Shown: positions 23,984 through 58,451 of the stretch, one piece after another
Numbering within the stretch: the stretch's first letter is position 1
Layout of the letters: each line of letters begins with the position of its first letter
Source of the DNA: Chloroflexia bacterium
GTDB taxonomy: Bacteria; Chloroflexota; Chloroflexia; QHBQ01; JAICKM01
Length of the DNA: 61,573 nucleotides
Direction: 5' to 3'
Assembly: GCA_035693165.1 (NCBI GenBank)
Contig: DASSGZ010000649.1
Location: 1-61,573, forward strand
Notes under the pieces: model-generated
Database searches by the model: none
Seen by the model: only the letters and a program-made list of their open reading frames with translations
What the model was told of the DNA's origin: nothing
Position numbers and translations under genes: made by a program

Positions 23984-24121
23984 ACGATGCTGCCCTTTGG
24001 GGCGCGCGCCGGATAGCTTGCTACGATGCGATCTGCCACGGTGCGGATCACATAATGCGCCTGGCCCATGTAACGGCGCACCGATCCGGCGCGAATGTTC
24101 AAGGAAAACGAGGTCTCCCGC

Positions 24122-31033: not shown

Positions 31034-31627
31034 ATGAGCGCAACTTCCCCGGTACCGCAATCCGTGATCGACGAATTCGTCGGCGTGGCGCACGGCGACT
31101 TCCAGCGGTTGCAAGAACTGCTCGTCGAGTACCCCGCCGTGCTCAACGGCGACGCCACCTGGCACGAAACGGCCATCGAGGCCGCCGCGCAGATGGGCCG
31201 GGTCGATATAGTCGAATATCTGCTGGCGGCGGGCGCGCCCCTCGACATCTGTACAGCGGCCATGCTCGGGCGTCGCGCGGATGTCGCCGCCGCCCTGGAC
31301 GCCGACCCCGCCGCCGCCCACGCCACCGGCGCGCACGGCATCCCCGTGCTCTACTACCCGGCCATCGCCAACCACCCGGCCATCGCCGAAGATCTGCTGG
31401 CGCGGGGCGCCGAGGTGAATGCAGGCGCGGGCGGCAATACGCCGCTGCATGGCGCGGCCATGTTCGGGCAGCCGGAGATGGCCGCCTGGCTGCTGGCCCA
31501 CGGCGCCGACCCGGCAGCCCGCGACTACAACGGCAAGACCCCGCTGGAAGTCGCCCTGGACAGCAACCAGGCGGCCGTCGCCGATCTCCTCCGCGCCCAC
31601 TCCCCCGCGCCGGGCAACGAAGTGTGA
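31034..31627 (+). CDS. Ankyrin-repeat protein
   Basis: GNTPLHGAAMFGQPEMAAWLLAHGADPAARDYNGKTPLEVA. AAAGGAG RBS. Confidence 0.88.
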   Translation: MSATSPVPQSVIDEFVGVAHGDFQRLQELLVEYPAVLNGDATWHETAIEAAAQMGRVDIVEYLLAAGAPLDICTAAMLGRRADVAAALDADPAAAHATGAHGIPVLYYPAIANHPAIAEDLLARGAEVNAGAGGNTPLHGAAMFGQPEMAAWLLAHGADPAARDYNGKTPLEVALDSNQAAVADLLRAHSPAPGNEV

Positions 31628-33327: not shown

Positions 33328-33357
33328 TTGACACTGTGCGCGGATAGGTGCTATAAT
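33328..33357 (+). promoter_or_regulatory. Consensus promoter TTGACA, 18 nt, TATAAT heading the sbcD / giant-protein cluster
   Basis: Read directly: TTGACActgtgcgcggataggtgcTATAAT. Confidence 0.65.
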
Positions 33358-33454
33358 CGCCTGTATACTCAACATAATGTGAGCCGGCGTGCCGGGGGCT
33401 GTCCTGTGTGCCTGGCGCCGCCGGAAACCCGCCCACCCACGGAAAGCACACCAG

Positions 33455-34690
33455 ATGATCCGTATCCTGCACCTGGCCGACATACACCTGGGTATGGAAA
33501 ATTACGGCCGGGTGGACCCGGCGACCGGCCTGTCCAGCCGCCTGGGCGATTTCCTCGCCAGCCTCGACACCGCGCTCGACTACGCCATCGACCATGCGTT
33601 TGACCTGGTGTTGTTGGCCGGGGATGTCTACAAGAACCGCGACCCCAGCCCCACCATCCAGCGCGAGTTTGCCCGCCGCATCCACCGCCTGTCCGCCGCG
33701 GGCATCCCCACTTTTCTGCTGGTCGGCAACCACGACCTGCCGAATACCTGGGCCCGCGCGCACACGGTCGAGATCTTCGACACGCTGGCCGTGCCCAATG
33801 TCTGGGTGGCGCGCAAGCCCGGCGTCGTCCAGATCCCCACGGCGCACGGGCCTGTGCAAATCGCCGCCCTGCCCTGGGTCACACACCACACTCTGCTGAC
33901 CAAGGACGAGTATCGCAGCTATTCGCACCGCGAACTCAACGGCATCCTGGCCGATAAGGTCGAAGCCTTGATCGACGGTATGATCGACGAGCTCGACCGC
34001 GCCCTCCCCGCCATCTTCACCGCGCACGCGGCCATCGACATCGCCAAGACCTCGTCGGAGCACAGCATGATGCTCGGCGACGACCTGGTGCTGCCGCTGA
34101 GCCTGGTGGCCCGCCCGGAGTTCGACTATGTGGCGCTGGGCCACGTGCATAAGTACCAGGTGTTGCACAAGCACCCGCTGGTGGTCTATCCCGGCAGCCT
34201 CGAACGCATTGACTTCGGCGAAGAGCGCGACCCCAAGGGCTTTGTGACGGTCACGCTCGACGAGACCTGCCCGCGCGGCGAGCGAGCCATGGCGCACGAG
34301 TTTCACGAGGCGGGCGCGCGGCGCTTCCTGACGGTGGAAGTGCATACCAACGGCGGCAATCCCAATGAAACCGTCCTTCGCAAGCTCGCCGCGCGGGCCG
34401 ACGATATTCGCGGGTCCATCGTCCGGGTTGTGATCAAAACCACGGCGGAGCAAGAATCGCTGCTGCGCGACGACGAGATCCGTAAGGCGCTGAGCGAGGC
34501 GGCATATATTGCCTCGGTCAGCCGCGAAGTGGACGCGCCGCAACGCACCCGGCTGGGCGGGCACGCCATCGAGCAACTGACCACCCGCCAGATCCTGGAA
34601 CTATACTGCGCCAGCGCCAAGATCGCGCCGGACCGCACGGCGACCCTGCTGAAATATGCGGACGAGTTGATAGGCGACCCGGCCGAGTGA
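33455..34690 (+). CDS. sbcD: Mre11/SbcD-family metallophosphoesterase nuclease
   Basis: MIRILHLADIHLG, LLAGDVY, LVGNHD, GHVH motifs. Internal ATG chosen. Confidence 0.85.
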   Translation: MIRILHLADIHLGMENYGRVDPATGLSSRLGDFLASLDTALDYAIDHAFDLVLLAGDVYKNRDPSPTIQREFARRIHRLSAAGIPTFLLVGNHDLPNTWARAHTVEIFDTLAVPNVWVARKPGVVQIPTAHGPVQIAALPWVTHHTLLTKDEYRSYSHRELNGILADKVEALIDGMIDELDRALPAIFTAHAAIDIAKTSSEHSMMLGDDLVLPLSLVARPEFDYVALGHVHKYQVLHKHPLVVYPGSLERIDFGEERDPKGFVTVTLDETCPRGERAMAHEFHEAGARRFLTVEVHTNGGNPNETVLRKLAARADDIRGSIVRVVIKTTAEQESLLRDDEIRKALSEAAYIASVSREVDAPQRTRLGGHAIEQLTTRQILELYCASAKIAPDRTATLLKYADELIGDPAE

Positions 34691-34723: not shown

Positions 34724-37700
34724 TTGCCCATGGCTGATCGCTCGCTGAGCAATATAACCCTGCAGGACGCCTACAGCCGCGCGCAAGCCGCGCTCGAAGG
34801 CGGCGACAGCCCCCGCGCTGTCGCCATCACCCAGCACATCCTGCGCTATTATCCCCAGTATATCGACGCCTACCGCCTGCTGGGCGAGGCCTACCTGGAG
34901 TTGGGCCGGCCCGAGGAAGCGATGCGCTTCTTCACCCACGTGCTCAACGCCGACCCCCAGAACGTGCTGGCCCACATTGGCCGCGCCATTATCGCCGAAG
35001 ACCACCACCAGGTCGACATCGCCATCGACGAGTACGAGCGCGCCTTTGAGATCGATCCGAGCATCACCGAACTGCGCGGCGAGTTGCTGCGGCTCTACGC
35101 CATCCGCTACGGCAGCGCGGGCGCCGCGATCCGCACCACGCCGAGCGGTCTGGCCTATGTCCACCTGCGCGCCGGGCTGCGCGACGCGGCCATCAGCGAA
35201 CTCGGCTATGTGGCCCAGGTGCGCCCCGACCGCTGGGATGTCGAGGTGGCGCTGGCCGAGGCCCTCTGGCGCAACGAGCAGTTGGACGAGTGCGCCGCCG
35301 TCGCCGGGGATATCCTGGCCGGCCACCCGGCCTGCGTGAAGTGCAAGTGGCTGCTGGGCTACCTTCATTGGAGCAGCGGGCGCACCGAGAGCGGGCGGCA
35401 ATACCTGATGGACGCCGTGGCCCTCGACCCGGCCTACCGCATCGCCAATGCCGTCTGGGACGCCACGCCCTGGCCCGTGGACCGGCGCATCACCCGCGCG
35501 CAAACCGCCATGGTGCCCGGCTGGACGCAAGAGGAACTGGTCGGCAGCGACCTGGACATCAGCGTGGCGCTGCCGCCGGAACCGCCTGCCTCTAAAGAGG
35601 CACCCGCCGCGCCTGGCGGATCGCGCCGCGTGACTCAGAAATTCGACACCCGCCCGCCCCTGCCCGGTGAGTCGCGCCGCGTGACTCAGAAATTCGACAC
35701 CCGCCCGCCCCTGCCCGGCCAGACCTCCGAACTGACCCCCGCGGAAGAAGTCCCGGCCCCGCCCGCGGCGGCCGCGGAAGCGCTGGAGTGGGACAGTATC
35801 CTGAGCAGCCCGGATGCGCCCGCCCCCTTCGACCTCGACTGGTTGGACGACTGGGCCGCCGCCGCCGAAACCACCCCCGCTGCGCCCGCGCAATCGGCCC
35901 ACGCCACGCTGGAGTTCGAGGCAATCGCGCCTCCCGCCGCCGAGGATAGCGCCCCCCCGCCGGACACGCTGGTCGTCACGCCCGCGCCGGAAGCCGCATC
36001 GCTCGCCATGCCGGTGGAGGCATCAGAGCCGGAAGCCGCTGCGGGCGCCGTGGCAGCAGAAGTAACGGCGCCGGAAGCCCCCCTCCCCCTGGCCGGAGCG
36101 GCAGCAGCAACGGCGCCGGAAGCCCCCCTGGCCGAAGTGGCAGCAGCAGCGGAGCCGGAAGCCGCGCTGGTCGAAACTGATGGTATCACCGAGCAAGAAG
36201 CCACCGAGATCGCAGTGTTCCCGGTCTCGCCTGCCGAGGCCGCGCCTGCCGGGCCGCCCGCGGATGAGGCCGGGTTGCCCGCCGCCGAGCCGGACGGCTT
36301 CCTGGCGTGGCTCAGCGAACCTGCGACAGGCGCGCCGCAAGCGGAGGAGATCGAGGCAGGACCGGCCGAGGATATAGCGGAGGCCAGTGACGCCGCCGAG
36401 TCGCCCGCGGCCCAGGCCGGCATGTTCCCCGCCTGGCTGGACGAACAGCCCGCAGATTCCGGCGCCGCCCCCCCCGCCGAGGGCGAAGACGCGGCGGTAC
36501 CGATCACGGAGTCGTCCTCCGCGCAGCCCAGCATGTTCCCTGAGTGGATGGGTGCGCCGGCCAATGGCGTGCAAGAAGCCGTCCCGGCGGAGAGCGCCGC
36601 CGGCGAGGCAACTGCTAATGTTGTAGAAGCAGCCGCCCCGGCAGAGAGCGCCGCCGATGTGGCCGCAGCGGAGCCGGCGGATCAAGCTGAAGCCGGCGTC
36701 CCGGCGCCCGCCCGGCATCAGGTCGTCCACCTCTTCCCGGCCTGGCTGGAAGAAGCTACGAGCGACGACGAAGACGAGTCGGACCTGGAGATGCTGCCCG
36801 CCTGGATGCGCGAGGCCGGCCCGCTCGAAGCCGGCACCCCGGCTGCAGCAGCCGAGACGACAGCAGATGCGCAAGTCGCCTCGGCGGACGCCGCCATCCC
36901 GACCGAGCACGCCGAGGAGGCCGTGCCCGCCGCGCCTGTCCCGGCGGACGCCCTCAGCTTGATCACCGCCGAGCAGGAAGCGCCGGCGATACTCACCGGC
37001 GAGGAACCCGTCGCCAGGGTAGCGGGGGATCAGGAAGTACCACCAGCGATCTCCCCGGAGGAACCGACTCCGTTTGCAGCGGCGGCGCAAGAGGACGGCG
37101 CGGATATGATGGTCCCGGCGCCCACCGAAGCGGCATCCGCAGATGAAAGTCCGCTGATTGGCGAACCCGCGCTGCCGATTATGGAGCCGGCCCTGGCGGA
37201 AGCCGAAGCAGGCGCGCCCGCCCAGGTCGAGATCATAGTGGCCGAGTCCGGGGCCGAAAGCGAACCGGCCGCCGTGGCCGCGAGTGACCCGGACGCCGCT
37301 ATCCTGCCCGACGATCTGTTCCCGGCCTGGCTGGAGGAGATCGAGCGCAGCGCAGCGACCGGCGCAACCGAAGCCCAAGCGGCCGGGGCCACGGCGCCGG
37401 AAACGACTGCTGAGGAAGCAGCGCCGGCAATGGCCACCCCGCCGGAAGCGAGTACCGAGGAAGCAGCGCCGGTAATGGCCGCCGCAGTGCCGGAAGCCCT
37501 GCCGGCTGAGGAGCCGCAGGCCGGCGTGCCGGAAGCGATGTCTGCGGACGACGTGCAGGCCAGTGCGGCCCCGCCCGAAGCGATGCCTGCTGAGGACGCG
37601 CAGGCGAATGAGGCCGCGCCCGAAGCGCTGCCTGCCGCGGACATACAGGCGAGTACTGTCGCACCGGAAAACGTACCGGCTCAGGGCGTGCCGGCCAATG

Positions 37701-40700
37701 ATGTTGCGCCGGAAGACGTGCCGGCTCAGGGCGTGCCGGCGAATGATGTTGCGCCGGAAGCGCTGCCCGCCGCAGACGCGGACTTTATAGTCGAACCGGC
37801 CACCCCACCGTCCGCAACGGCTGCCACGTCCGAACCCGGTCCTGCGGCGATGGCCGGCGCGGACCGCGTGACGGAGTCTGCGGCGCAGCTTTCTCCCAGC
37901 GAAGACGAGACGTTTCCGGCCTGGATGAGCGAGACCGGCGCGGCCAGTTTGCCGGTGGTTGTCGCGCCTGATGTGCCGGAAGCCGAAAGCGCCGAATCGG
38001 CGGATCGCGAACCGGCCCCTGCGGCGCCTCCCGCGCCGGTGGCCTCCGCGGAGGCCACCGGGATCGCGGCGTCCGCGCCGGGCGATATGCCGCAACCGGA
38101 GATCGACGCGAGTGCAGCGGCGGAAACCGCGTCGGCACAAGAGGCGGCCCCCGAGACGCCGGCAACGGAAGCGAGTGTGCTGCCGGACTGGCTCACCGAA
38201 GCAGTGAACGTGCAGACGCCGGAGGCGACCGGTGCCCCCACGCCGCTGGCGCTCGATGAAGAAACCCTGTTCGCCGCCGACCACACGCTGGGCGGACAGG
38301 CCGGCGAGATCCCCATCGCCGACGACCTCTTCCCCGCGTGGTTGGAGGCCGGCCCTTCCGGCGCGCTGGACGGCGGCGAACTACCGCCCCCGCTTGCGGC
38401 TCAGGTTCCGCCTGAAACGCCGGTTCGGGAAGACAACTCATTGCCACCGATGGTCGCGGCGGAGGATGCCGCCTTCCCCGCTGGGCAAGATGCTGCGGCA
38501 TCTGCACAACCGGCCGGCTTTGCAGAGGCGGCGGGCACACCGGACACGACGAGCACAGCGCAAGCTGCGGCGCCGGGCCTGGCCGCGGGCAGCGCCGAGC
38601 ACATCCCCGCCCCACCTGACACCAGCAAAGAGGCGGACGCGTTCCCGGCGTGGATGGCCGGCTCGTGGTTTGAGGTCGCGGTCGCCCCGGCGCCCGGCGA
38701 GCCCAGCGCGGAACCGCTGGTGATTGTGCCGGAGAGTGCGATAGAGTCCTCCACGGAACCGGCGCCGCCGGTCGAGGCCGGGGCGAACCTCCCGGCGACC
38801 GAGGCCGCCCAGGCCGCCACGCCGGAGGCAGCAGGTGAGGCCTCGGTCGCCGAAGCGGCAGCAGCGGAGAATGAGCTAATCGGGGCGCCGGGCTTCGTCG
38901 TGGCCGGCGATTCGGCGCCGGTCGTGAGCTACTCCGCCGAGGCCACGCCGGAAGCCGCCGACCCGCTGCACGAGGAGATCCTCGATTGGCCGGCGGCCGC
39001 CGAGGGCAGCCCGGATGCTGCCGAAGCCGATCATCCCACCGAACCGGACCCGACGCCGGAAGAGACCGCCGCGCCACCGGTCCTTGCCGCAGCCGCCGAA
39101 CCGCACGATATGCACCCCAGCGAGTCCGCGCCGGACGCCGCAGCGGCGGCGGACACCGAAAGCGCCGGACTGGTGTCGCCCCATGCGGCCGAAGCCGAGG
39201 GCCCGGCCCTATCCGTACTGGCCGGCCCCGAGCCGGGCGTTGGCGCCCCCTCTACCCCCGGCAGTGCCCCCGCAGATGCCGCCGCTGCGCCGCCGGTAGA
39301 TGCCGCCGCCGGAGAAGCCATCGCGGAAACCGCCGCCCCGGCGCCGGATGCGTCTGCCGGGACAGCGGAATCGAGGCCGGCCCCCGCCCTACTCCCCGCG
39401 TTAGATCATTTTGCCAAAGTGGGCTATAATCATGCCGACGACTCACAGGTTCCAGACGACACGGCAGCACCCGGCCCCCCGCTCACCCCGGCAGGCACGA
39501 CCGGCGCCGATGCCGGACCTGGCGAGCGACCGGCAGCCGTCGAAGCCGGTCACCTGCCCGATGGAGCGGTGGAGCATGGCGCGCCCGCCGCAGGCCAAGC
39601 AGCTTTCGCGACCTCAGAGGAGGACAACATGGCTCCAAGCTACAAGGAAGACGACGATCAAGAGCGCCAGTTCGACTTCGACTGGGATCGCGATGCTCTG
39701 CCCGACTATCTCAAGCCCTTCCTCATGAATGAGACTCCCGGCCAGCCGGGACAACCGCCAGCGCCCGCCGCGCCGGCCGGTCCCACGGCCGGCGCCGCGC
39801 CGCCCGCAGGCCGGCCCATGCCGCCCGCGCCGGGGGCCGGGGGCCCAGGGAGCAACGACTTTAACCTGGATCTGGATAACATTCAGCCGTTTGATTTCGG
39901 GGCCCCGCCCCCGGCGCCGTCGCCCGGCCCCGCCACGCCGATCCGGCCGCTGTCCGCAACCCCGCCGCCAGTGGCCCCACCGCCGCAACAGTCGCCGGGT
40001 GGATTCAACGAGAGCGATTTCGGCGGTGTGCAGCCCTTTAACTTCGGCGCGCCCGCCGGCCCAGGGGGCGGCGATGAGTTCGATTTCGGCAGCGAAGCGC
40101 TGCCATCGTGGTTAGGATCGGGTGGCAACGCCGGCCCCGCGTTCAGTTTCGACACGTCCGCCGGCCCGCAGGCCACCGAGCCGGCGCCGGGGCCTGATTT
40201 AAGCAGTCCGGGGATTCCCGATTGGCTGCGCACCCCGGAAACGGAGACGCCCCAGGCCGCCCGGCCCGGTCCGGCCGCGCCCCCGCCCCCGGCCGCGCCC
40301 GGCGGCGACTTCGACTTTGGCAGCGAGGCGCTGCCGTCCTGGTTGAGCGCGAGCGCCGCGCCGGCCCCGCCCGCCGCGAACGATTTCGGCGATGTGCAGC
40401 CCTTTGACTTCGGTGCCCCCGCGGGCCAGGGCCAGCCCCAGCCCTTCGACTTCGGCGCCCCCGCGGGCGGTCAGGGCCAGCCGCAACCCTTTGACTTCGG
40501 CGCCATGGCCGGCGGCGGCCCGCAGCCGTTTAACTTCGGCGCGCCCGCCACTCCCGAGCGCGGCCCCGCCCCGGCCCCGTCGCAGGAGTTTGACCTGGGC
40601 GGCGTCCAGCCATTTGATTTCGGTGCCCCGGCCACGCCTGCGCCGCCCGCCGCGCAAAGTACACCCGGTGGGCCGGCCCCAGGCGGCGACTTTGACTTTG

Positions 40701-43700
40701 GCGGCATCCAGCCGTTTGATTTCGGCGGCACCGCCGCGCAGGCAGGCGAAAGCGCCGCGCCGCAGGCAGCCGGGGCGCCCGGCGAGTTTGATTTCAGTAT
40801 GGTCGAGTCGTTCGACTTCCGGGGTCCCGGCGCCACGCCGTCCGCGGGCGGCGCCAATGACTTTGATTTCGGGGGCGTCCAGCCGTTTGACTTCGGCGGG
40901 GCACCGGCCGGCGGCGAGATGGCGGGCGATGTGAGCGATGTCGATGACTTTATCGACTTCCTGAGCGTGGGCGCGGGCAACGCCGCGCCTGCCGTGCCCG
41001 CGCCCGACGAGTTCGCCTTCGACCTGGGCGGCGACGTGCAGCCCTTCTCGCTGGAAGGCATGGGGTTGGGCAGCACGCCCGGCGCCCCCAGCCCGGCCTT
41101 CGGCGCGCCCCCCGCGCCCGGCCCGGCCTTCAGCGCCCCGCCCGCGCCCATGGCCGGCGCGCCGGCAGGCGGCGTGCGGCTGCCCGCGGGCCCCGGTCCC
41201 GAGGAGATGGGCAGCCTGGCCGGCGACGAATTCAGCTTCGAGCCGTTCATGTTTGATGCCGCGGGCGGCGCCGCCCCGCCCGCTCCGTCCGCCCCGCCGG
41301 CCTTCAACCAGGCGCCCGCCATGCCCACGTCGCCCTTCAATCCGGGGTCGGCATTTGCGAACCGCGCGCCGGCGGATGTGCCGCCCGGCCTGGAGGATCT
41401 GCCCGATCTCCAGCCCTTCTCGTTCGAGGGCCTGGATGCGACCGGCGATCAGGGCTATGGGTTTGACTCCGGCGCCGGGGGCCAATCCTTTGGCCGGCGC
41501 GCGACCGATCGCGGGGAAACCAGCCGTAGCGGCATGGCCTTCAACCTGGAAGAAGAAACCAACGCCCCCGCCGGGGATGTGCATAGCTTCTCGTGGCAGC
41601 GCCGCAGCACGCCGGCCCGCGAACCGGCCCATGCCCCGGAGGCGCCCGAGACCGCTGGATCTATCTTCGCCAAGGCGCGCAAGCGCAAGGAGGAGCTGGA
41701 ACAAACCCTGCGCCAGGAGGCGGAAGCGCGCGGCGAGGTCTACACGCCCCCGCCGGTGGCCGCGAACCTGCACCCGGAGGAAGCCGCAGAATTGAGTTAC
41801 TGGCCCAATCTGGACGAAGAAGAGGCTGTGGCGAGCGCGCCGGCCCAACCGGCGGTCCAACCCTTTGACTTTACCGCCGTGGCCGGTCCCACGCCCGCCG
41901 ATGTCGCCCAGGATATGGCGAGCCTGCAACTGGCGCCGTTCGAGTTCGAGGAAGAAGGCCCGCCCGCCGCCGGATCGCCGACTATCCAGTTGCCGGAGGA
42001 AAGCGCGCAAGCGAGCGCCCAGGCCCCCGCGGCGCCCCAGTTCGCCGCCGACCAGACAATCCAGGTGCCGTTGCAGGATCAGGCCGGCCTGGAGGCCGGC
42101 GCCCCGGCCATGCCCGAGCCGTTTGCCTTTGAGGCCGCGGAGATCCCTGCCGAAATCCAGCCCTTCTCGTTCGATCTGGGCGCAGAGGCGCAGGCCGCGC
42201 CCGCCGAGGCGCAAGCCGCCTCGCCGCCTGCCGAACCCTTTGCCTTTGAAGCCCCGGAACCCGGCGCCGCCCCGGTTGAACCGTTCGCCTTCGAGGTCCC
42301 GGCCGGCGGTCCCACCGCCGTCCAACCCTTCACTTTCGAAGCCCAGGAAGGCCCGCCGCCGGCTGTCGAACCGTTCACGTTTGAGGTCCAGGAAAGCGCC
42401 GCCGCCACCGCCGAACCTTTTGCCTTTGAGCCGGAGGCCGGCGAGGCTGCGCCTGTCCAGCCCTTCAGTTTCGAGGCCCAGGAAACCGAAGCGGCCGCCG
42501 TCCAGCCCTTCAGTTTCGAGACCCAGGAAAGCGAAGCGGCCGCCATCGAGCCCTTCAGTTTCGAGACCCAGGAAACCGAAGCGGTGGCTGTCCAGCCCTT
42601 CACCTTCGAGGCCCCCGAGGCCGGCGCGCCGGTGGAGCCGTTCGTCTTTGACACCGCCGCTCCGGCGGAATCTGCCGCGCAAGCCGCGCCCGTTACTGCC
42701 GAGGCCCCCGAGGCTGCCGCGCCCGCAGTGGAACCCTTCGCCTTCGATATGACCGAAGCGCCGGAGGCTCCCGCCGTCGAGCCGTTCACCTTCGACATGG
42801 CGGAGAGCGTTGCGCCGCCCACCTTCGAGCCCGCGGAACCGAGTGCCGCGGCGCCGCAGGCGGAAGCCGCCCCGCAGGAAGCCGCAGCGGGCGAATTGCT
42901 CTGGAGTATCCCCGTCGCCGAAGCGGGTAACGCACCCACGGCGGAAGCCACCGCCACCGGCGGCTTCGGCGAGGAAGTGGCGCCCGGCGAATTCGACTTC
43001 AGCGGCCTCCAGCCGTTTGACCTTGGGGCGCTGGACCTCACGCCCGAAGAACGCGCCTACCTCACCGGCGAGGCAGCCGCCGCCGAGGCGGCGCCCGCTG
43101 AGGTAAGTGCGCAGGCGCCCGCCGAACCCGCCGCCGTCGCGGCGCCGGAGGAGCCGGCGGGGATTCCCGAACTCCAGTTGCAGCAGACCGAACCCGCCGG
43201 CCCCATCGAGCCGTTCAGCTTCGATATGACTGAGTTTGAGCCGCCCGCCGCCGAACCGCCCGCGATGGACCTGGGCGGGGTGCCGCCCGCCGAGGCGCCC
43301 GGCTACGAGGCCGGCGCGCCCACGGCCACGGTCGAACCGGTCGAGTTCGGCATGAGCGAGGCGAGCGAAGCCGCCACGGTCGAGCCGTTCGAGTTCGACA
43401 CGGAAGCCGCCGCGCCCGCGCCCGCCGAGCCGTTCCAGTTCGAGCCGTTCCAGTTCGAGCCGGAAGCGCCGCCCGCGCCGGAGCCGGTCGAGATCGAGGC
43501 AGAGGCCACCGAAGACGAAGCGGCGCTACCGTTCAGCTTCGAGGCCTCCGCCGAGCCGGCCGTCACGCACTACGAAACCACGACGCGCACCGGTACCGGG
43601 CCGCTGGCCGCCGAAACCTGGGCGGAAATTCCGGCCGCCGGCGCCTTCGACTTCAGCGGGGTCGAGATGGACCAGGCACCCACCGAACCCGCCGTGGCCG

Positions 43701-44224
43701 AGGCGCCCGAACCCGCCGTCGCCCAGGCGCCTGAACCCGTCGTCGCGCAGGCGCCTGAAGCGCCCGCCGCCGAGGCGCCCGTGGAAACCCCCGCGCCGGT
43801 GCCCCCGGCCCCTGTGGCCGAGGCGCCTGCCCCTAAAGAGGCATCGAAAGAGGCACCGGTGGCCGCCCAACCGGCCCCGGTCCCGGTCGCGCCGCCCGCG
43901 CCGGCGGGGGGCTCCATCGACGACCTGGCCCGCCATCTGCGCGAGAACCCGGACGACACCGCCGGGCGCCTGGCCCTGGCGATCGGCTACGAGCAACGCG
44001 ACGACATCTCGCGCGCCGCCGAGCAATATCGCCTGCTGATCAAGGGCCGCAATGTGCCGGAAAATCTGCTCGACATCGTGACGGGCAACCTGCGCGATCT
44101 GGTCGAGGCCCAGCCCGATAATCCATCCTTACATCGCCTGCTGGGCGACGCCTACATGAAACAGGGCCAGTACCAGATGGCAATCGCCCAGTACAACTGG
44201 TTGCTGACCAAGGGCACACGCTAG
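34724..44224 (+). CDS. Giant (3,166 aa) acidic low-complexity protein with TPR-like N-terminal (~270 aa) and C-terminal (~100 aa) caps; no family recognised
   Basis: Single uninterrupted frame with G/C-rich third positions. TPR-like YIDAYRLLGEAYLELGRPEEAMRFF and LLGDAYMKQGQYQMAIAQY. Start is TTG 34724 or ATG 34730. Confidence 0.85.
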   Translation: MPMADRSLSNITLQDAYSRAQAALEGGDSPRAVAITQHILRYYPQYIDAYRLLGEAYLELGRPEEAMRFFTHVLNADPQNVLAHIGRAIIAEDHHQVDIAIDEYERAFEIDPSITELRGELLRLYAIRYGSAGAAIRTTPSGLAYVHLRAGLRDAAISELGYVAQVRPDRWDVEVALAEALWRNEQLDECAAVAGDILAGHPACVKCKWLLGYLHWSSGRTESGRQYLMDAVALDPAYRIANAVWDATPWPVDRRITRAQTAMVPGWTQEELVGSDLDISVALPPEPPASKEAPAAPGGSRRVTQKFDTRPPLPGESRRVTQKFDTRPPLPGQTSELTPAEEVPAPPAAAAEALEWDSILSSPDAPAPFDLDWLDDWAAAAETTPAAPAQSAHATLEFEAIAPPAAEDSAPPPDTLVVTPAPEAASLAMPVEASEPEAAAGAVAAEVTAPEAPLPLAGAAAATAPEAPLAEVAAAAEPEAALVETDGITEQEATEIAVFPVSPAEAAPAGPPADEAGLPAAEPDGFLAWLSEPATGAPQAEEIEAGPAEDIAEASDAAESPAAQAGMFPAWLDEQPADSGAAPPAEGEDAAVPITESSSAQPSMFPEWMGAPANGVQEAVPAESAAGEATANVVEAAAPAESAADVAAAEPADQAEAGVPAPARHQVVHLFPAWLEEATSDDEDESDLEMLPAWMREAGPLEAGTPAAAAETTADAQVASADAAIPTEHAEEAVPAAPVPADALSLITAEQEAPAILTGEEPVARVAGDQEVPPAISPEEPTPFAAAAQEDGADMMVPAPTEAASADESPLIGEPALPIMEPALAEAEAGAPAQVEIIVAESGAESEPAAVAASDPDAAILPDDLFPAWLEEIERSAATGATEAQAAGATAPETTAEEAAPAMATPPEASTEEAAPVMAAAVPEALPAEEPQAGVPEAMSADDVQASAAPPEAMPAEDAQANEAAPEALPAADIQASTVAPENVPAQGVPANDVAPEDVPAQGVPANDVAPEALPAADADFIVEPATPPSATAATSEPGPAAMAGADRVTESAAQLSPSEDETFPAWMSETGAASLPVVVAPDVPEAESAESADREPAPAAPPAPVASAEATGIAASAPGDMPQPEIDASAAAETASAQEAAPETPATEASVLPDWLTEAVNVQTPEATGAPTPLALDEETLFAADHTLGGQAGEIPIADDLFPAWLEAGPSGALDGGELPPPLAAQVPPETPVREDNSLPPMVAAEDAAFPAGQDAAASAQPAGFAEAAGTPDTTSTAQAAAPGLAAGSAEHIPAPPDTSKEADAFPAWMAGSWFEVAVAPAPGEPSAEPLVIVPESAIESSTEPAPPVEAGANLPATEAAQAATPEAAGEASVAEAAAAENELIGAPGFVVAGDSAPVVSYSAEATPEAADPLHEEILDWPAAAEGSPDAAEADHPTEPDPTPEETAAPPVLAAAAEPHDMHPSESAPDAAAAADTESAGLVSPHAAEAEGPALSVLAGPEPGVGAPSTPGSAPADAAAAPPVDAAAGEAIAETAAPAPDASAGTAESRPAPALLPALDHFAKVGYNHADDSQVPDDTAAPGPPLTPAGTTGADAGPGERPAAVEAGHLPDGAVEHGAPAAGQAAFATSEEDNMAPSYKEDDDQERQFDFDWDRDALPDYLKPFLMNETPGQPGQPPAPAAPAGPTAGAAPPAGRPMPPAPGAGGPGSNDFNLDLDNIQPFDFGAPPPAPSPGPATPIRPLSATPPPVAPPPQQSPGGFNESDFGGVQPFNFGAPAGPGGGDEFDFGSEALPSWLGSGGNAGPAFSFDTSAGPQATEPAPGPDLSSPGIPDWLRTPETETPQAARPGPAAPPPPAAPGGDFDFGSEALPSWLSASAAPAPPAANDFGDVQPFDFGAPAGQGQPQPFDFGAPAGGQGQPQPFDFGAMAGGGPQPFNFGAPATPERGPAPAPSQEFDLGGVQPFDFGAPATPAPPAAQSTPGGPAPGGDFDFGGIQPFDFGGTAAQAGESAAPQAAGAPGEFDFSMVESFDFRGPGATPSAGGANDFDFGGVQPFDFGGAPAGGEMAGDVSDVDDFIDFLSVGAGNAAPAVPAPDEFAFDLGGDVQPFSLEGMGLGSTPGAPSPAFGAPPAPGPAFSAPPAPMAGAPAGGVRLPAGPGPEEMGSLAGDEFSFEPFMFDAAGGAAPPAPSAPPAFNQAPAMPTSPFNPGSAFANRAPADVPPGLEDLPDLQPFSFEGLDATGDQGYGFDSGAGGQSFGRRATDRGETSRSGMAFNLEEETNAPAGDVHSFSWQRRSTPAREPAHAPEAPETAGSIFAKARKRKEELEQTLRQEAEARGEVYTPPPVAANLHPEEAAELSYWPNLDEEEAVASAPAQPAVQPFDFTAVAGPTPADVAQDMASLQLAPFEFEEEGPPAAGSPTIQLPEESAQASAQAPAAPQFAADQTIQVPLQDQAGLEAGAPAMPEPFAFEAAEIPAEIQPFSFDLGAEAQAAPAEAQAASPPAEPFAFEAPEPGAAPVEPFAFEVPAGGPTAVQPFTFEAQEGPPPAVEPFTFEVQESAAATAEPFAFEPEAGEAAPVQPFSFEAQETEAAAVQPFSFETQESEAAAIEPFSFETQETEAVAVQPFTFEAPEAGAPVEPFVFDTAAPAESAAQAAPVTAEAPEAAAPAVEPFAFDMTEAPEAPAVEPFTFDMAESVAPPTFEPAEPSAAAPQAEAAPQEAAAGELLWSIPVAEAGNAPTAEATATGGFGEEVAPGEFDFSGLQPFDLGALDLTPEERAYLTGEAAAAEAAPAEVSAQAPAEPAAVAAPEEPAGIPELQLQQTEPAGPIEPFSFDMTEFEPPAAEPPAMDLGGVPPAEAPGYEAGAPTATVEPVEFGMSEASEAATVEPFEFDTEAAAPAPAEPFQFEPFQFEPEAPPAPEPVEIEAEATEDEAALPFSFEASAEPAVTHYETTTRTGTGPLAAETWAEIPAAGAFDFSGVEMDQAPTEPAVAEAPEPAVAQAPEPVVAQAPEAPAAEAPVETPAPVPPAPVAEAPAPKEASKEAPVAAQPAPVPVAPPAPAGGSIDDLARHLRENPDDTAGRLALAIGYEQRDDISRAAEQYRLLIKGRNVPENLLDIVTGNLRDLVEAQPDNPSLHRLLGDAYMKQGQYQMAIAQYNWLLTKGTR
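35621..35722 (+). repeat. Near-perfect 51-bp tandem duplication inside the giant gene (SRRVTQKFDTRPPLPG x2)
   Basis: The copies start at 35621 and 35672. The 48 nt encoding SRRVTQKFDTRPPLPG are identical and only the trailing codon differs (GAG vs CAG). Confidence 0.95.
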
Positions 44225-44772: not shown

Positions 44773-45120
44773 GTGAGGAAAATCGTCGAAGATCTGATTC
44801 GCATCGACGGCGTAATCGGCGGCCTGCTGGTGGGCAAAGACGGCCTGGTGGTGTCGAGCACCCTGCTGGAAGATGAAGATGCCGAGGTCCTGGGCGCGAT
44901 GTCCGCCGCCATGTTCGGGACCATCGCCAAGGCCGCCGAGCGGATCGGCGTGGGGGCTCTGCGCGACACGATCATCGAAGCCGCCGAGGGATCGATCCAG
45001 TTAATCGAGGCCGAGGATCTCATCCTTGTCGTGATCACCGAGCGGGGCGTGAACCTGGGTATGATTCGGATCGAGATGCGCAAAGCCGCCAAGCGCGTCC
45101 GTGAAGAAATCCCGATGTAG
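44773..45120 (+). CDS. Roadblock/LC7 (MglB-like) domain protein
   Basis: IDGVIGGLLVGKDGLVVSS...EDLILVVITERGVNLGMIR. GTG start behind GGGAGGG. Confidence 0.82.
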   Translation: MRKIVEDLIRIDGVIGGLLVGKDGLVVSSTLLEDEDAEVLGAMSAAMFGTIAKAAERIGVGALRDTIIEAAEGSIQLIEAEDLILVVITERGVNLGMIRIEMRKAAKRVREEIPM

Positions 45121-45170: not shown

Positions 45171-45620
45171 TTGGAACGTACGCTTATTATCCTGAAACCC
45201 GACGCCGTGCAGCGGGGCCTGGCCGGCGAGATCCTGAACCGGCTGGAGCGCCGGGGCTTGAAGATCGCCGGCATGAAGATGATGCAGGTCAGCCCCGAAC
45301 TGGCGAAAGAACACTATGCCGAGCATGTCGGCAAGCCCTTCTATAACGGCCTGATCGAGTATATCACCTCCTCGCCGGTGGTCGTGCTGGTGCTGGAGGG
45401 CAAGAACGCCGTCGCCATTTCGCGCAGCACCATCGGCGCCACCAATCCGGCCAACGCCGCCCCCGGCACCATCCGCGCCGACCTGGCCGTCGAGACGGGC
45501 CGCAACCTCATCCACGGGTCTGCCGACCCGGAAGCCGCCGCCCGCGAAGTGAGCCTCTGGTTCAAGGACGACGAACTGACCTCGTGGCCGCGCGATACCG
45601 ACCGCTGGATCCAGGAGTAA
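45171..45620 (+). CDS. ndk: Nucleoside diphosphate kinase
   Basis: ERTLIILKPDAVQRGL...NLIHGSAD. TTG start behind GAAGGAG. Confidence 0.93.
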   Translation: MERTLIILKPDAVQRGLAGEILNRLERRGLKIAGMKMMQVSPELAKEHYAEHVGKPFYNGLIEYITSSPVVVLVLEGKNAVAISRSTIGATNPANAAPGTIRADLAVETGRNLIHGSADPEAAAREVSLWFKDDELTSWPRDTDRWIQE

Positions 45621-50935: not shown

Positions 50936-51059
50936 TACGGTTTGTGTTACTCCTTCCCTGTGATAAAACCGGAACCGATAGATCGCCGCACAACGGGGAT
51001 TTAGGGCTGTCCCGAATGGGCCGCGGCAGGCAGACAAACTGCGCGGGACATAGGCGCAT

Positions 51060-52959: not shown

Positions 52960-53209
52960 CCCGGCTCCGGTTTCGGCTACTCTCCGCCGCCGCCCCTGCG
53001 GTCGGGGCGCGGTGGCGGAGGGGGGTTCAGGGGTCCGCCGTAGGAGGCCGGCACACCCCATCAGTACACCAGGGCACCCGCCATCGACCAGTGAACTGCG
53101 CGTTAACCTCTTCTTCGTTTCCCCGCCCCCACCGGCTGCCGCCGCGTGGGTTGTATCCACCACCGGCGGGCCGGCACTGACCGGCTGTGCAAAGGAGCAG
53201 TGTAAATCT

Positions 53210-58275: not shown

Positions 58276-58451
58276 CTTCAGCTCCTTCCAGACAGGAGGG
58301 TGGGGATGAGACCACCCGAGAGGGAACAACGACGGCACGGGTTGCGTTGCGCGGTGGCCTCGGTGGAGGCGCGGATGGCGCCGGGCGGCGCCAATTGCAA
58401 CTAGCTAGAGTATACCAAATCAAACGCGCGGGCGGGAGGGCAAACGGCGAC

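What the first reader, a model, noticed from the sequence alone, without database searches (positions are those of the whole stretch)
34724..44224. 3,166-aa TPR-capped, hyper-acidic, repeat-motif protein of no recognisable family
One uninterrupted 9.5-kb frame with clear G/C third-position bias.
- Only the first ~270 aa and last ~100 aa look folded, and both look TPR-like.
- The ~2,800 aa between them are dominated by Ala/Pro/Glu/Gly/Asp with very few Lys/Arg.
- The middle is not random. By my manual count it carries 32 P-F-x-F motifs, about 10 more [DEA]-F-x-F motifs and about 14 [FLI]-P-x-W-[LM] motifs.
- That is the layout of a multivalent short-linear-motif scaffold.
- The nearest architectural analogies I know are FimV/HubP-type polar hubs (acidic repeats plus a C-terminal TPR) and RomR-like polarity scaffolds. 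This protein has no TM, LysM or receiver domain.
- I cannot assign it to any described system.
Basis: partly seen in the sequence, partly recalled or inferred. Interest (0 to 1): 0.88.

Follow-up and report, generated by a model that had tools for sequence, protein, structure and literature searches.

The report
Giant TPR-capped acidic motif-array scaffold
This is a real 3,164-residue gene, the longest member found here of a widespread but unstudied Chloroflexota protein family in which two TPR caps bracket a very acidic disordered chain studded with about 60 short aromatic docking motifs, and it always sits next to a Roadblock/LC7 gene and nearly always close to an NDK gene.

Summary
The frame 34724-44224 is open, and the likely start is ATG 34730, giving 3,164 aa. 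It has a confidently folded N-terminal TPR solenoid, a roughly 100-aa C-terminal TPR unit, and about 2,800 disordered residues with net charge -420. Motif counts are 32 PFxF, 10 [DEA]FxF and 12 [FLI]PxW[LM], all but the weaker [DEA]FxF class far above shuffled expectation.

"No recognisable family" is only half right. No curated model exists. But the protein belongs to a large Chloroflexota family with the layout N-TPR, variable acidic linker with motif arrays, C-TPR. That family has 555 representatives at E<=1e-30, ranging from 388 to 2,805 aa.

Members carrying PFx[F/L] arrays are followed by a highly conserved Roadblock/LC7 gene in every locus checked, usually then by ndk. Anaerolineae members carry only PhiPxW[LM] arrays and are followed directly by ndk in four of the five loci checked. 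V4R is a recent insertion in the window's own clade.

New finding: a conserved internal Shine-Dalgarno plus ATG (39629) precedes a conserved mid-element. In the closest relatives the gene is split exactly there.

The function has not been tested. My best guess is a multivalent cytoplasmic scaffold whose PFxF sites dock Roadblock dimers. It is not a FimV/HubP or RomR homologue.

The parts
33328..33357 (+). Perfect sigma-70-type promoter match (TTGACA, 18-nt spacer, TG-TATAAT). Likely start of the transcription unit.
   Evidence: 12 of 12 hexamer positions match. No other + strand promoter-like site was found before the giant gene. This is a consensus match only.
33389..34690 (+). sbcD (Mre11-type nuclease subunit). 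Its stop lies 39 nt upstream of the giant gene's ATG.
   Evidence: Pfam Metallophos, and NCBIfam TIGR00619 sbcd at 155.9 bits against a cut-off of 77.65. The same gene sits upstream in L001-L007, L045/L049 and L053. It is absent upstream in Chloroflexus L050 and in L052.
34730..44224 (+). The giant gene: 3,164 aa from the ATG (3,166 from TTG 34724), about 320 kDa, net charge -432.
   Evidence: Start inferred from homologues.
34730..35473 (+). N-terminal TPR solenoid (aa 3-250, about 7 helical hairpins). This is the family-defining domain.
   Evidence: Pfam TPR_16/TPR_2/TPR_19 at E 1e-14 to 1e-16. AF2 pLDDT 89.9, pTM 0.88. 39-78% identity to orthologues.
35474..35578 (+). Post-TPR segment that folds back on the N-terminus. 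It includes the conserved P-W-P and 'VPGW' stretch.
   Evidence: AF2 shows a beta bridge between residues 9-10 and 261-262. The same feature appears in the P0005 model, between 14-16 and 261-263.
35579..39628 (+). Zone A: Ala/Pro/Glu-rich acidic linker (about 1,350 aa, net charge about -227) with 9 [FL]P[AED]W[LM] motifs. The 51-nt 'ESRRVTQKFDTRPPLPG' unit is duplicated at its start.
   Evidence: This zone is about 440 aa in P0248 and about 570 aa in L004, so it accounts for most of the extra length.
39617..39631 (+). Internal Shine-Dalgarno (GAGGAGG, 39617-39623) plus the conserved ATG at 39629. A putative internal translation start, or a fossil gene boundary.
   Evidence: It is the only one of 45 in-frame ATGs with a full GAGGAGG at proper spacing. 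The same AGGAG-plus-ATG arrangement occurs in L001-L007, L053 and L054, although the encoded residues differ (SEED, MKEN, DKEN, EQEN). In L001 and L002 the upstream ORF stops about 45 nt earlier, and a second ORF in another frame starts at this ATG.
39629..39739 (+). Conserved mid-element MAPSYKEDDDQERQFDFDWDRDALPDYLKPF (aa 1636-1672).
   Evidence: 57-84% identical in L001-L007 and present in P0004. The FDWE..ELPDYL core is kept in members only 25-30% identical overall.
39740..41587 (+). Zone B: Gly/Pro-rich linker with 20 FxF motifs, 13 of them FxFG ('VQPFDFGAP', '[DE]FDFG'), plus 3 [LI]PxWL motifs.
   Evidence: Near-identical 'GVQPFDFGG' arrays occur in L003, L004, L001 ORF2 and P0248.
41588..41758 (+). 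Conserved 'FSWQ ... SIFAKARKRKEELEQTL' element, the only non-acidic (net charge +1) stretch of the middle. It is likely helical.
   Evidence: [FY]SWQ occurs exactly once in all 10 complete members scanned that have an adjacent Roadblock gene (11 with the window), and in 23 further representatives. The S[IL]F[SAE]K part is matched in 7 of the 10.
41759..43873 (+). Zone C: Glu/Ala/Pro-rich linker with 23 FxF motifs, mostly '[VI][EQ]PFxF[ED]'. One run of 11 copies has steps of 14-15 aa. There is a single conserved 'FDFSGLQPFDLGALDLTPEERAYL' element.
   Evidence: The landmarks YWP, LWSIP, TPEExAYL and FDFSGxxM are colinear with L004 and L042. The DNA copies are only 60-87% identical and differ at synonymous sites.
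43874..44221 (+). C-terminal TPR unit (aa 3051-3166), ending ..HRLLGDAYMKQGQYQMAIAQYNWLL.
   Evidence: Weak Pfam TPR_11/TPR_20 hits. End-to-end homology to the C-termini of P0005 (3e-13), P0287 (2e-16) and L004-L011. 95% identical in the independent contig L046.
44234..44725 (+). V4R-domain protein (163 aa), starting 9 nt after the giant gene's stop. A clade-specific insertion.
   Evidence: Pfam V4R at 3e-21. Present only in L004, L041, L042 and L046.
44773..45120 (+). Single-domain Roadblock/LC7 protein (115 aa), the conserved partner gene.
   Evidence: Pfam Robl_LC7 at 3e-15. Orthologues are 62-100% identical and lie directly downstream of the family gene, or after V4R, in 20 other loci. Closest solved relatives by sequence: Roadblock-domain entries 7f8m, 7yh1 and 9jue, then CvnB5, then MglB.
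45171..45620 (+). Nucleoside diphosphate kinase (ndk), the neighbour most widely conserved across the family.
   Evidence: Pfam NDK at 5e-57. It lies downstream in 16 of the 18 other Roadblock-adjacent loci that extend past Roadblock, and is not detected in L006 and L007. It directly follows the family gene (12-22 nt gaps where gene calls are given) in Anaerolineae-type loci L014, L034, L036-L038.
45631..47832 (+). PMT/GT39-like membrane glycosyltransferase, starting 10 nt after ndk. Possibly the last gene of the unit.
   Evidence: Pfam PMT and PMT_2. Conserved only in the nearest relatives L041 and L042.

Best explanation
The ORF is a genuine gene for a cytoplasmic 'beads-on-a-string' scaffold. 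A roughly 245-aa N-terminal TPR solenoid and a roughly 100-aa C-terminal TPR unit bracket a hyper-acidic disordered chain. That chain has been inflated by repeat amplification to about 2,800 aa.

**Contents of the chain**
- Two classes of short aromatic docking motifs:
  - about 12 [FL]P[A/D/E/S]W[LM];
  - about 47 PFx[F/L]/FxF sites, in a Gly/Pro-rich FxFG flavour and a Glu/Ala-rich PFxF[E/D] flavour.
- Three single-copy conserved elements:
  - the mid-element FDFDW..LPDYLKPF;
  - FSWQ..SIFAKxRKRKEE;
  - QPFDLGALDLTPEERAYL.

**Proposed mechanism (inferred)**
- The PFx[F/L] array recruits many copies of the dimeric Roadblock/LC7 protein encoded just downstream. The precedents are LAMTOR1 wrapping Roadblock dimers in Ragulator, and the disordered dynein intermediate chain binding LC7.
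- This concentrates whatever NTPase that Roadblock regulates. The co-operonic NDK would regenerate GTP locally.
- The PhiPxW[LM] array, which the branch without an adjacent Roadblock gene also carries, recruits a second partner that is not yet identified.
- The TPR caps anchor or oligomerise the assembly.
- The locus probably also yields a separate C-terminal product (M1636-R3166) from a conserved internal ribosome-binding site.

**What is shown:** gene reality, family membership, domain folds, motif enrichment and conservation, synteny, and the internal SD/ATG with gene fission in relatives.

**What is inferred:** every binding partner and the cellular role.
For: **Reality and fold:**

**Family**
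- Five close hits at E<=1e-50 when the window's N domain is the query.
- At least 401 clusters when the 392-aa mini-member P0005 is the query.
- 555 representatives at E<=1e-30. The 77 complete ones have a median length of 1,234 aa and a maximum of 2,805 aa.
- The C-terminal TPR unit is homologous across the family.

**Motifs conserved, spacers not**
- 'VQPFDFGG' arrays in L003, L004 and P0248.
- 'PFSLEELGLSxEEIAxL' arrays, at least 19 copies in Kouleothrix-like L052 and 26 in Chloroflexus L050, and also in Herpetosiphonaceae.
- 'KPFSFE' in 35 copies in P0287.
- The motif-coding DNA copies differ at synonymous sites.

**Motif content tracks the neighbouring gene**
- All 12 complete proteins from the PFx[FL]-bearing branch, the window's included, sit next to a Roadblock gene.
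  - The 10 relatives scanned carry 8-26 PFx[FL].
  - The window carries 35.
  - P0287 carries 35 and P0368 carries 11.
- The four truncated fragments inspected also show the arrays.
- In 123 Anaerolineae-type proteins, none has two or more PFx[FL], while 90 of 123 carry PhiPxWPhi.
- None of the five Anaerolineae-type loci with known context has a Roadblock gene next to the family gene.

**Partner conservation and operon**
- Roadblock is more conserved (62-96%) than the TPR domain (39-78%).
- Operon-like spacing of 9-50 nt, a single consensus promoter, and no strong + strand terminator-like site in the intergenic gaps.

**Precedent for disordered chains binding Roadblock dimers:** established knowledge of Ragulator/LAMTOR1 and of dynein IC-LC7. 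LAMTOR2 and MglB appear among the sequence relatives.

**Internal start:**
Against: - No interaction was tested, and no multimer prediction was possible with these tools.
- The link between motif type and an adjacent Roadblock gene is phylogenetically confounded. It amounts to essentially one or two evolutionary events.
- AF2 of the mini-member P0005 did not dock its single PAWL motif onto the TPR domain (pLDDT 42-46). That gives no support for intramolecular TPR-motif binding, and no information about binding in trans.
- No small GTPase gene lies in the window.
- Chloroflexus has a separate canonical MglA locus elsewhere, listed in PMC3000849 apparently with its own mglB. The target of this Roadblock is therefore unknown.
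- Many orthologues carry a sigma-70 region 1.1-like domain that this model does not explain.
- ndk linkage may reflect gene-order inertia only.
Confidence: 0.4

Rival explanations
1. A self-associating, FG-nucleoporin-like phase. The aromatic FxFG and PFxF[E/D] 'stickers', set in Gly/Pro-rich and charged spacers, bind each other or the alpha-solenoid TPR caps of neighbouring molecules. The result would be a condensate or brush in the cytoplasm of these filamentous bacteria. Roadblock and NDK would be clients rather than the main ligands.
For: - 13 FxFG and 26 FxF[E/D] motifs at steps of about 13-15 aa in the tight runs, in two spacer flavours (Gly 17%/Pro 19% against Glu 16%/Ala 26%). This recalls cohesive and charged FG domains.
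- Receptor-like TPR solenoids sit at both ends of every family member.
- Motif number scales from 1 to about 60 across the family. That is what a valency-tuned system would show.
Against: - A net charge of -420 with almost no Lys/Arg argues against homotypic cohesion without counter-ions or a basic partner.
- AF2 gave no confident motif-TPR docking in P0005.
- Herpetosiphonaceae and Chloroflexus orthologues use a longer, helix-prone 'PFSLEELGLSPEEIAQL' unit. That looks like a specific binding site rather than a generic sticker.
- The model does not explain why an adjacent Roadblock gene tracks the PFx[FL] arrays.
Confidence: 0.2
2. A polyanionic nucleic-acid mimic or nucleoid/RNA-polymerase-associated factor. 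The hyper-acidic chain competes with DNA or RNA for basic surfaces, for example RNA polymerase or repair nucleases such as the co-transcribed SbcD. The motifs would tether it to those machines.
For: - 33 of about 132 family representatives, plus L009, L050 and L052, contain a Pfam Sigma70_r1_1-like domain. In sigma-70 that acidic domain occupies the DNA channel.
- sbcD lies directly upstream, apparently under the same promoter, in several distant lineages.
- Extreme acidity.
- A helicase gene follows ndk in L053 and L054.
Against: - The window protein and its whole clade lack the r1.1-like domain.
- sbcD adjacency is absent in Chloroflexus, in the Kouleothrix-like locus and in Anaerolineae loci.
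- Aromatic motif arrays are not a feature of known DNA mimics.
- No nucleic-acid-related domain is found in the protein itself.
Confidence: 0.12
3. A division or cell-wall-associated scaffold that works by mimicking the FtsZ tail. The [FL]PAW[LM] motifs, usually preceded by acidic residues and followed by Arg in Anaerolineae members, imitate the conserved FtsZ C-terminal peptide (..LDIPAFLRK..). They would then engage FtsZ-tail receptors such as FtsA or SepF multivalently.
For: - Pattern resemblance: Phi-P-A-aromatic-L in 9 of the window's 12 motifs, and 'EEVPDWLRxL' in Anaerolineae members. [quoted passage not shown]
- An FtsW/RodA-family gene lies two to four genes downstream of ndk in L050, L051 and L052.
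Against: - This is a resemblance only.
- The FtsZ tail of these organisms could not be retrieved.
- Trp replaces Phe.
- The motif is internal and repeated rather than C-terminal.
- No division gene is adjacent in the window.
Confidence: 0.1
4. A non-functional product: an assembly artefact, a pseudogene, or a chance open frame in GC-rich, low-complexity DNA.
For: - High-GC DNA gives long spurious ORFs. The minus strand holds ORFs of 753 and 827 aa inside the region.
- Residues 406-1635 have no near-identical independent assembly.
- The exact protein is not on record in the public gene-position collection searched.
Against: - The chance of an open frame this long is about 1e-23.
- Both ends are confirmed by independent contigs at 95-96% identity (P0001, L046).
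- Internal landmarks are colinear with L004, L042 and P0248.
- The repeats are diverged (60-87%), so they are not prone to collapse in assembly.
- Full-length orthologues of 1,200-2,805 aa occur in 50 or more lineages.
Confidence: 0.02

Closest known systems
Uncharacterised Chloroflexota 'tetratricopeptide repeat protein' family (for example the 1,739-aa protein of the Chloroflexus genome GCA_000516515.1, and the 392-690-aa Anaerolineae proteins P0005 and P0019)
   Same: - Homologous N-terminal TPR domain (35-78% identity).
- Homologous C-terminal TPR unit.
- Acidic disordered linker with PhiPxW[LM] and/or PFx[F/L] arrays.
- The FSWQ/IFxK element.
- Roadblock and/or ndk immediately downstream.
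   Different: - The window protein is the longest seen: 3,164 aa against a maximum of 2,805 aa among the 77 complete representatives.
- It combines both motif classes.
- It lacks the sigma-70 r1.1-like domain present in many Chloroflexales and Herpetosiphonales members.
- It has V4R inserted before Roadblock.
- The family has no curated model and no published function that I could find.
Ragulator LAMTOR1 (p18) and the dynein intermediate chain: disordered chains that bind Roadblock/LC7 dimers (from established knowledge)
   Same: A disordered polypeptide is paired with a Roadblock-fold dimer. The Roadblock encoded here is a single-domain protein related in sequence to LAMTOR2 and MglB.
   Different: - No sequence homology of the disordered chain.
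- Tens of repeated sites here rather than one or two.
- Bacterial, TPR-capped and hyper-acidic.
- Binding is not demonstrated.
FimV/HubP polar hubs
   Same: A long acidic, repeat-rich cytoplasmic region with a TPR-like C-terminal end, and the idea of a hub that recruits several clients.
   Different: - No signal peptide, LysM domain or transmembrane segment.
- No match to any FimV C-terminal model.
- The N-terminus is itself a TPR solenoid.
- Different phylum.
RomR-MglC-MglB polarity module of Myxococcus
   Same: An acidic, Pro-rich disordered scaffold working with Roadblock-fold proteins.
   Different: - No receiver domain.
- No mglA nearby.
- The Roadblock here is a distinct 115-aa paralogue. 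PMC3000849 lists a separate C. aurantiacus MglA homologue, apparently with its own mglB.
FG-nucleoporin domains (FxFG type)
   Same: Regularly spaced FxFG/FxF motifs in disordered spacers of two flavours. There are 13 exact FxFG.
   Different: - Bacterial, with no pore-anchoring domain.
- Far more acidic.
- The motif core is PFxF with a conserved preceding [VI][QE]P.
- This is an analogy of pattern only.

Membership tests
Chloroflexota TPR-linker-TPR family (uncurated) | N-terminal ~245-aa TPR domain with the signature ..QHxLxYYP..YRLLGEAYLE..ERAFE..P...R.EL.RLY..ALAEALWR | tested here: met
   - P0001: 96% identity.
- L001 and L002: 76-78%.
- L004: 62%.
- P0005: E 2.6e-51.
- 555 representatives at E<=1e-30, most aligned over residues 2-241.
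Chloroflexota TPR-linker-TPR family (uncurated) | C-terminal ~100-aa TPR unit ending ..(H)R(L/V)LGDAY.K.G....A...Y.W.L at the very C-terminus | tested here: met
   tblastn and BLASTP give E 3e-13 to 2e-39 against P0005, P0287, L004, L006, L007, L009 and L011.
Chloroflexota TPR-linker-TPR family (uncurated) | Acidic disordered linker carrying arrays of PhiPxW[LM] and/or PFx[F/L] motifs | tested here: met
   12 PhiPxW[LM] and 35 PFx[FL] motifs, enriched 20- to 400-fold over shuffles. The same motifs occur in orthologues.
Chloroflexota TPR-linker-TPR family (uncurated) | Roadblock/LC7 and/or ndk directly downstream | tested here: met
   The window order is TPR gene, V4R, Roadblock, ndk. Roadblock follows the family gene in 20 other loci. 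ndk follows the family gene directly in four distinct Anaerolineae-type loci.
FimV/HubP | N-terminal periplasmic LysM domain plus a transmembrane segment | tested here: not met
   No LysM hit in Pfam at E<=1. The maximum 19-residue hydropathy is 1.18, so no TM segment.
FimV/HubP | FimV-type C-terminal domain (NCBIfam/TIGRFAM FimV C-terminal models) | tested here: not met
   The NCBIfam scan of the whole protein at E<=0.01 returned only generic TPR-containing models, all far below their cut-offs, and no FimV model.
RomR | N-terminal response-regulator receiver domain | tested here: not met
   No Response_reg hit in Pfam at E<=1.
MglB (tested for the neighbouring Roadblock gene) | An adjacent mglA small-GTPase gene, and an MglB-length (~160 aa) protein | tested here: not met
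   - No small GTPase in the 35 window ORFs scanned; SelB is the only GTPase found.
- The protein is 115 aa.
- MglB scores only E about 1e-3, against 4e-9 for the top Roadblock-domain entry 7f8m.
- PMC3000849 lists a separate MglA homologue in C. aurantiacus.
FG nucleoporins | FG-repeat domain attached to a nuclear-pore anchoring domain, and binding by transport receptors | not testable with these tools
   FxFG-like repeats are present (13 FxFG), but there is no anchoring domain. The comparison is of pattern only.
SbcC/Rad50 (considered because the gene occupies the position after sbcD) | Split ABC ATPase head with a long coiled coil | tested here: not met
   No SMC/AAA/SbcC model hit in Pfam or NCBIfam. 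The middle is Pro-rich (16%), which is incompatible with a coiled coil.

The most novel reading that the evidence does not exclude
The family would be a previously unrecognised bacterial organising system. A TPR-capped polyanionic chain carries FG-nucleoporin-like FxF arrays, up to about 60 sites here. It polymerises Roadblock/LC7 dimers, and with them an NTPase and NDK, into a cytoplasmic assembly or condensate in filamentous Chloroflexota.

That would make it a prokaryotic counterpart of Ragulator- or dynein-IC-type assemblies of a disordered chain with Roadblock dimers. Valency would be tuned by repeat amplification, and a programmed internal start would produce two cooperating halves.
Probability: 0.15. 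Interest if true: 0.85.

Novelty: new variant of a known kind. Interest (0 to 1): 0.6.

Why it matters
- **An undescribed family.** A well-conserved protein family of Chloroflexota, including the cultivated genus Chloroflexus and Kouleothrix-like and Herpetosiphonaceae genomes, has no description at all. This window holds its most extreme member.
- **A testable pairing.** The family offers a natural series from 1 to about 60 copies of defined linear motifs between the same two folded caps. It is tightly linked to a Roadblock/LC7 protein whose partner is unknown. The hypothesis 'disordered motif array docks Roadblock dimers' can be tested directly with peptides and with existing cultures. A positive result would give a bacterial precedent for the eukaryotic Ragulator and dynein-IC arrangement.
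- **Annotation.** The internal ribosome-binding site and the fused/split polymorphism show how a giant 'single' ORF may encode two products. That affects how such genes should be annotated.
- **If the scaffold idea is wrong.** The finding still defines a family, its conserved elements and its operon for future work.

Tried and rejected
- **Curated families.** I looked for a named family in Pfam and NCBIfam. Only generic TPR models matched. PrsT, MamA and PilW scored far below their cut-offs.
- **Fold search.** The P0005 model against the PDB gave only designed consensus TPRs and OGT/SPY TPR domains at TM below 0.3. No specific relative emerged.
- **Intramolecular docking.** I asked whether AF2 docks the PAWL motif onto the TPR domain in the mini-member. 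The motif region had pLDDT 42-46, so there is no evidence either way.
- **Small GTPase partner.** I searched the window for one. The only GTPase is SelB.
- **Extra domains.** None was found in the window's clade beyond TPR. The sigma-70 r1.1-like domain seen in other clades is absent here.
- **Exact record.** The exact protein is not on record in the public gene-position collection searched.
- **FtsZ tail.** I looked for ftsZ in all held loci to compare its tail with the PAWL motif. None is present.
- **Literature.** Six searches found nothing about this family or this operon.
- **SbcC/Rad50 analogue.** I considered this because of the gene's position after sbcD, and rejected it (no ATPase, Pro-rich middle).
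- **Chance SD-like site.** I considered that the internal SD-like sequence is only a by-product of Glu codons. This is partly countered by three points:
  - It is the only ATG with a full SD in the gene.
  - It is kept under different amino-acid contexts.
  - It serves as the real start in the split relatives.

Full report
**1. The observation**

The frame 34724-44224 (+) is open for 3,166 codons.
- The other five frames across the same 9.5 kb carry 13-66 stops. At this base composition the chance of such an open frame is about 1e-23.
- Homologues begin at the equivalent of the ATG at 34730. The 96%-identical fragment P0001 starts MADRSL, so the product is most likely 3,164 aa.
  - In residues 271-3060, K+R = 50 and D+E = 470.
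- In 2,000 shuffles that keep regional composition:
  - PFxF averages 1.5 (maximum 7).
  - [FLI]PxW[LM] averages 0.03.
  - [VIL][QE]PFx[FL] averages 0.03, against 23 observed.
  - [DEA]FxF alone is not significant (mean 3.5, maximum 11).
- There is no hydrophobic segment compatible with a membrane span.
- Pfam finds only TPR models, strong at residues 15-120 and weak at 3112-3160.
- AlphaFold2 of residues 1-285 with a 54-sequence alignment gives pLDDT 89.9 and pTM 0.88. It shows 14 helices up to about residue 243 and a short strand pairing between residues 9-10 and 261-262.

**2. It belongs to a family**

- Searching with the N domain found few close relatives. One hit, the 392-aa P0005, is a natural 'mini' version: N-TPR, a 40-residue acidic linker with one PAWL motif, then a C-terminal TPR unit homologous to the window's last 100 residues (E 3e-13).
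- Searching with P0005 returned at least 401 clusters. Where a source names them, they are Anaerolineae or other Chloroflexota. Most are 380-690 aa, and the only descriptive name any source gives is 'tetratricopeptide repeat protein'.
- Their linkers carry 3-12 copies of '[EG][VI]P[DE]W[LM][RQ]xL'.
- An exhaustive phmmer search of 1.8 billion representatives with the window's N domain gave 555 proteins at E<=1e-30. Of the top 150, 77 are complete family members with a median length of 1,234 aa and a maximum of 2,805 aa. The window protein is therefore the longest found, but not different in kind.
- AF2 of P0005 gives pLDDT 91.8. Both TPR parts are confident and the linker is disordered. Foldseek finds only generic TPR solenoids.

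**3. Anatomy of the middle**

The 'disordered' region is zoned and colinear with orthologues.

| Zone | Residues | Character |
|---|---|---|
| A | ~286-1635 | Ala/Pro/Glu-rich, with nine [FL]P[AED]W[LM] motifs |
| Mid-element | 1636-1672 | MAPSYKEDDDQERQFDFDWDRDALPDYLKPF |
| B | 1673-2288 | Gly/Pro-rich, 20 FxF motifs (13 FxFG), plus three [LI]PxWL |
| FSWQ element | 2289-2345 | FSWQ...SIFAKARKRKEELEQTL, the only non-acidic stretch |
| C | 2346-3050 | Glu/Ala-rich, 23 '[VI][EQ]PFxF[ED]' motifs |
| C-TPR | 3051-3166 | C-terminal TPR unit |

- Zone A is about 440 aa in P0248 and about 570 aa in L004, so it supplies most of the extra length.
- The mid-element is 57-84% identical in L001-L007. Its core is kept in members only 25-30% identical overall.
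- [FY]SWQ occurs exactly once in all 10 complete relatives with an adjacent Roadblock gene that were scanned. The IFxK part is matched in 7 of those 10.
- Zone C includes a run of 11 copies with 14-15-residue steps. It also holds one 'LQPFDLGALDLTPEERAYL' element. That is the single-copy counterpart of the 'PFSLEELGLSPEEIAQL' unit, present in 26 copies in a Chloroflexus genome and at least 19 in a Kouleothrix-like contig.
- The common core is therefore PFx[F/L].
- At the DNA level the copies are only 60-87% identical and differ at synonymous positions. That argues for selection on the peptide motif and against assembly artefacts.

**4. Gene neighbourhood**

- In the window the order is, all on the + strand with gaps of 9-50 nt:
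  - a perfect sigma-70 consensus promoter (33328-33357);
  - sbcD;
  - the giant gene;
  - V4R;
  - Roadblock/LC7;
  - ndk;
  - a PMT-like glycosyltransferase.
- The scan found no + strand terminator-like site in the intergenic gaps. The + strand matches it did report all lie inside coding sequence.
- Roadblock follows the family gene, directly or after V4R, in all 20 other loci of the PFx[FL]-bearing branch that I examined:
  - five GTDB genomes;
  - nine of nine metagenome contigs found by searching with Roadblock itself;
  - Chloroflexus GCA_000516515.1, a second MAG and a Kouleothrix-like contig;
  - the two distant giants P0287 and P0368.
- Roadblock orthologues are 62-100% identical, more conserved than the TPR domain (39-78%).
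- V4R occurs only in the window's nearest relatives (L004, L041, L042, L046).
- ndk was detected in 16 of the 18 other Roadblock-adjacent loci that extend past Roadblock. In L054 two genes intervene. It was not detected in L006 and L007.
- ndk directly follows the short Anaerolineae-type genes in four of the five loci checked, at 12-22 nt where gene calls give the gap. The fifth, L039, has a methyltransferase there instead.
- sbcD lies upstream in several lineages but not all.
- Motif content tracks the neighbour:
  - None of 123 Anaerolineae-type proteins has two or more PFx[FL], while 90 of 123 carry PhiPxWPhi.
  - All 12 complete proteins with an adjacent Roadblock gene, the window's included, carry 8-35 PFx[FL].
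  - The window's clade carries both motif classes.

**5. An internal start and a gene split**

- In L001 and L002, the closest GTDB relatives, the first ORF stops about 45 nt before the mid-element. A second ORF in another frame starts at the ATG of MAPSY. It is preceded by GAGGAGG. P0249 is a third instance of the short first product.
- In the window, the same GAGGAGG-N5-ATG lies inside the continuous frame (ATG 39629). It is the only one of 45 in-frame ATGs with a full Shine-Dalgarno.
- The same arrangement (AGGAG 6-12 nt before a conserved Met) is kept in L003-L007, L053 and L054, although the encoded residues differ: SEED, MKEN, DKEN, EQEN.
- I read this as a conserved internal ribosome-binding site. 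The locus likely makes a C-terminal product (M1636-R3166) as well as, or instead of, the full-length chain. This is inferred, not shown.

**6. What it most likely does**

The shown facts fit a multivalent scaffold.
- I propose that the PFx[F/L] array docks the co-encoded Roadblock dimer. Disordered chains binding Roadblock dimers are known from Ragulator (LAMTOR1) and from the dynein intermediate chain (established knowledge). LAMTOR2 and MglB are sequence relatives of this Roadblock.
- NDK in the same unit could supply GTP to whatever NTPase is regulated.
- The target is not the canonical MglA system. PMC3000849 lists a separate C. aurantiacus MglA homologue, apparently with its own mglB, and no small GTPase lies in the window.
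- The PhiPxW[LM] motif resembles the FtsZ C-terminal peptide DYLDIPAFLRKQAD (PMC4117426). This is a lead only. I could not retrieve a Chloroflexota FtsZ.

Rivals are:
- an FG-like self-associating phase;
- a polyanionic nucleic-acid mimic, suggested by the sigma-70 region 1.1-like domain in 33 other family representatives and by sbcD co-transcription;
- an artefact, which is essentially excluded.

**7. Comparison with known systems**

- FimV/HubP and RomR membership fail on their defining domains.
- The Roadblock is not a canonical MglB.
- FG nucleoporins are an analogy of pattern only.
- No curated model and no paper describing the family or the operon was found.
- I classify it as a new variant of a known kind, a disordered multivalent hub. 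It is the longest member found here of a real but undescribed family.

**8. Verdict**

The gene is real and conserved, and it is interesting mainly for two reasons. It defines an unstudied, widespread Chloroflexota family, and it offers a directly testable pairing between a motif array and Roadblock. It is less exceptional than 'no recognisable family' implied. Interest 0.6.

Noticed in passing
window 39617-39631; L001 7089-7138; L002 12254-12309: A conserved internal Shine-Dalgarno plus ATG lies inside the giant ORF. In the closest relatives the gene is split into two ORFs in different frames at exactly this point. P0249 is a third example of the short first product.
   Followed up: yes
L009 aa 795-862; L052 aa 1116-1180; L050 aa 1111-1174: Herpetosiphonaceae, Kouleothrix-like and Chloroflexus orthologues carry a Pfam Sigma70_r1_1-like domain in the middle of the acidic linker (37, 30.5 and 21.9 bits; cut-off 22.5). 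phmmer finds it in 33 of about 132 family representatives but not in the window protein.
   Followed up: partly
window 33328-33357: Perfect sigma-70 consensus promoter (TTGACA, 18-nt spacer, extended TG-TATAAT) upstream of sbcD. It suggests that sbcD, the giant gene, V4R, Roadblock, ndk and the PMT-like gene form one transcription unit.
   Followed up: partly
window 33389-34690: sbcD has no sbcC next to it. The position usually taken by sbcC is occupied by the giant TPR gene. This arrangement recurs in L001-L007, L045/L049 and L053.
   Followed up: partly
window 17183-17539: tmRNA gene (Rfam 168.8 bits; ARAGORN tag peptide GKQPVALAA*).
   Followed up: yes
window 1184-4351, 4894-7941, 8359-11778, 48509-51037, 55282-58338 (all - strand): Five large (842-1,139 aa) SLH-domain proteins lie in one 61-kb window. 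One has a subtilase domain and one has Kelch repeats. Three of them are tandem paralogue-like genes at 1.2-11.8 kb.
   Followed up: no
window 35611-35712: Near-perfect 51-nt tandem duplication encoding 'ESRRVTQKFDTRPPLPG' twice, just after the N-TPR domain. It is the only basic, Lys/Arg-containing repeat in zone A. It is also duplicated in the 96%-identical P0001.
   Followed up: partly
L050 11383-12507; L051 11383-12507; L052 15137-16495: An FtsW/RodA/SpoVE-family gene lies two to four genes downstream of ndk in Chloroflexus and Kouleothrix-like loci. The window has no equivalent.
   Followed up: no
L053 13102-15471; L054 16452-18418: A DEAD/Helicase_C/WHD_HRQ1/MZB helicase gene follows ndk in the two distant giant members.
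   Followed up: no
L046 570-1057: In an independent contig nearly identical to the window, V4R aligns as two pieces in different frames (aa 1-112 and 110-163). This suggests a frameshift or a sequencing error there.
   Followed up: no
window 34724-34730: The giant gene's likely ATG start has no recognisable Shine-Dalgarno upstream (gaaacggtaccttgcccATG), whereas Roadblock, ndk and the PMT-like gene do.
   Followed up: no
window 20497-22389 (-), 24095-26170 (+), 51385-52959 (+), 52949-53689 (+), 31034-31627 (+): Other genes identified by Pfam while surveying the window: SelB, an XPB/ERCC3-type helicase, RNase Y, a SpoVS-domain protein with a 160-aa N-terminal extension, and an ankyrin-repeat protein.
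   Followed up: no
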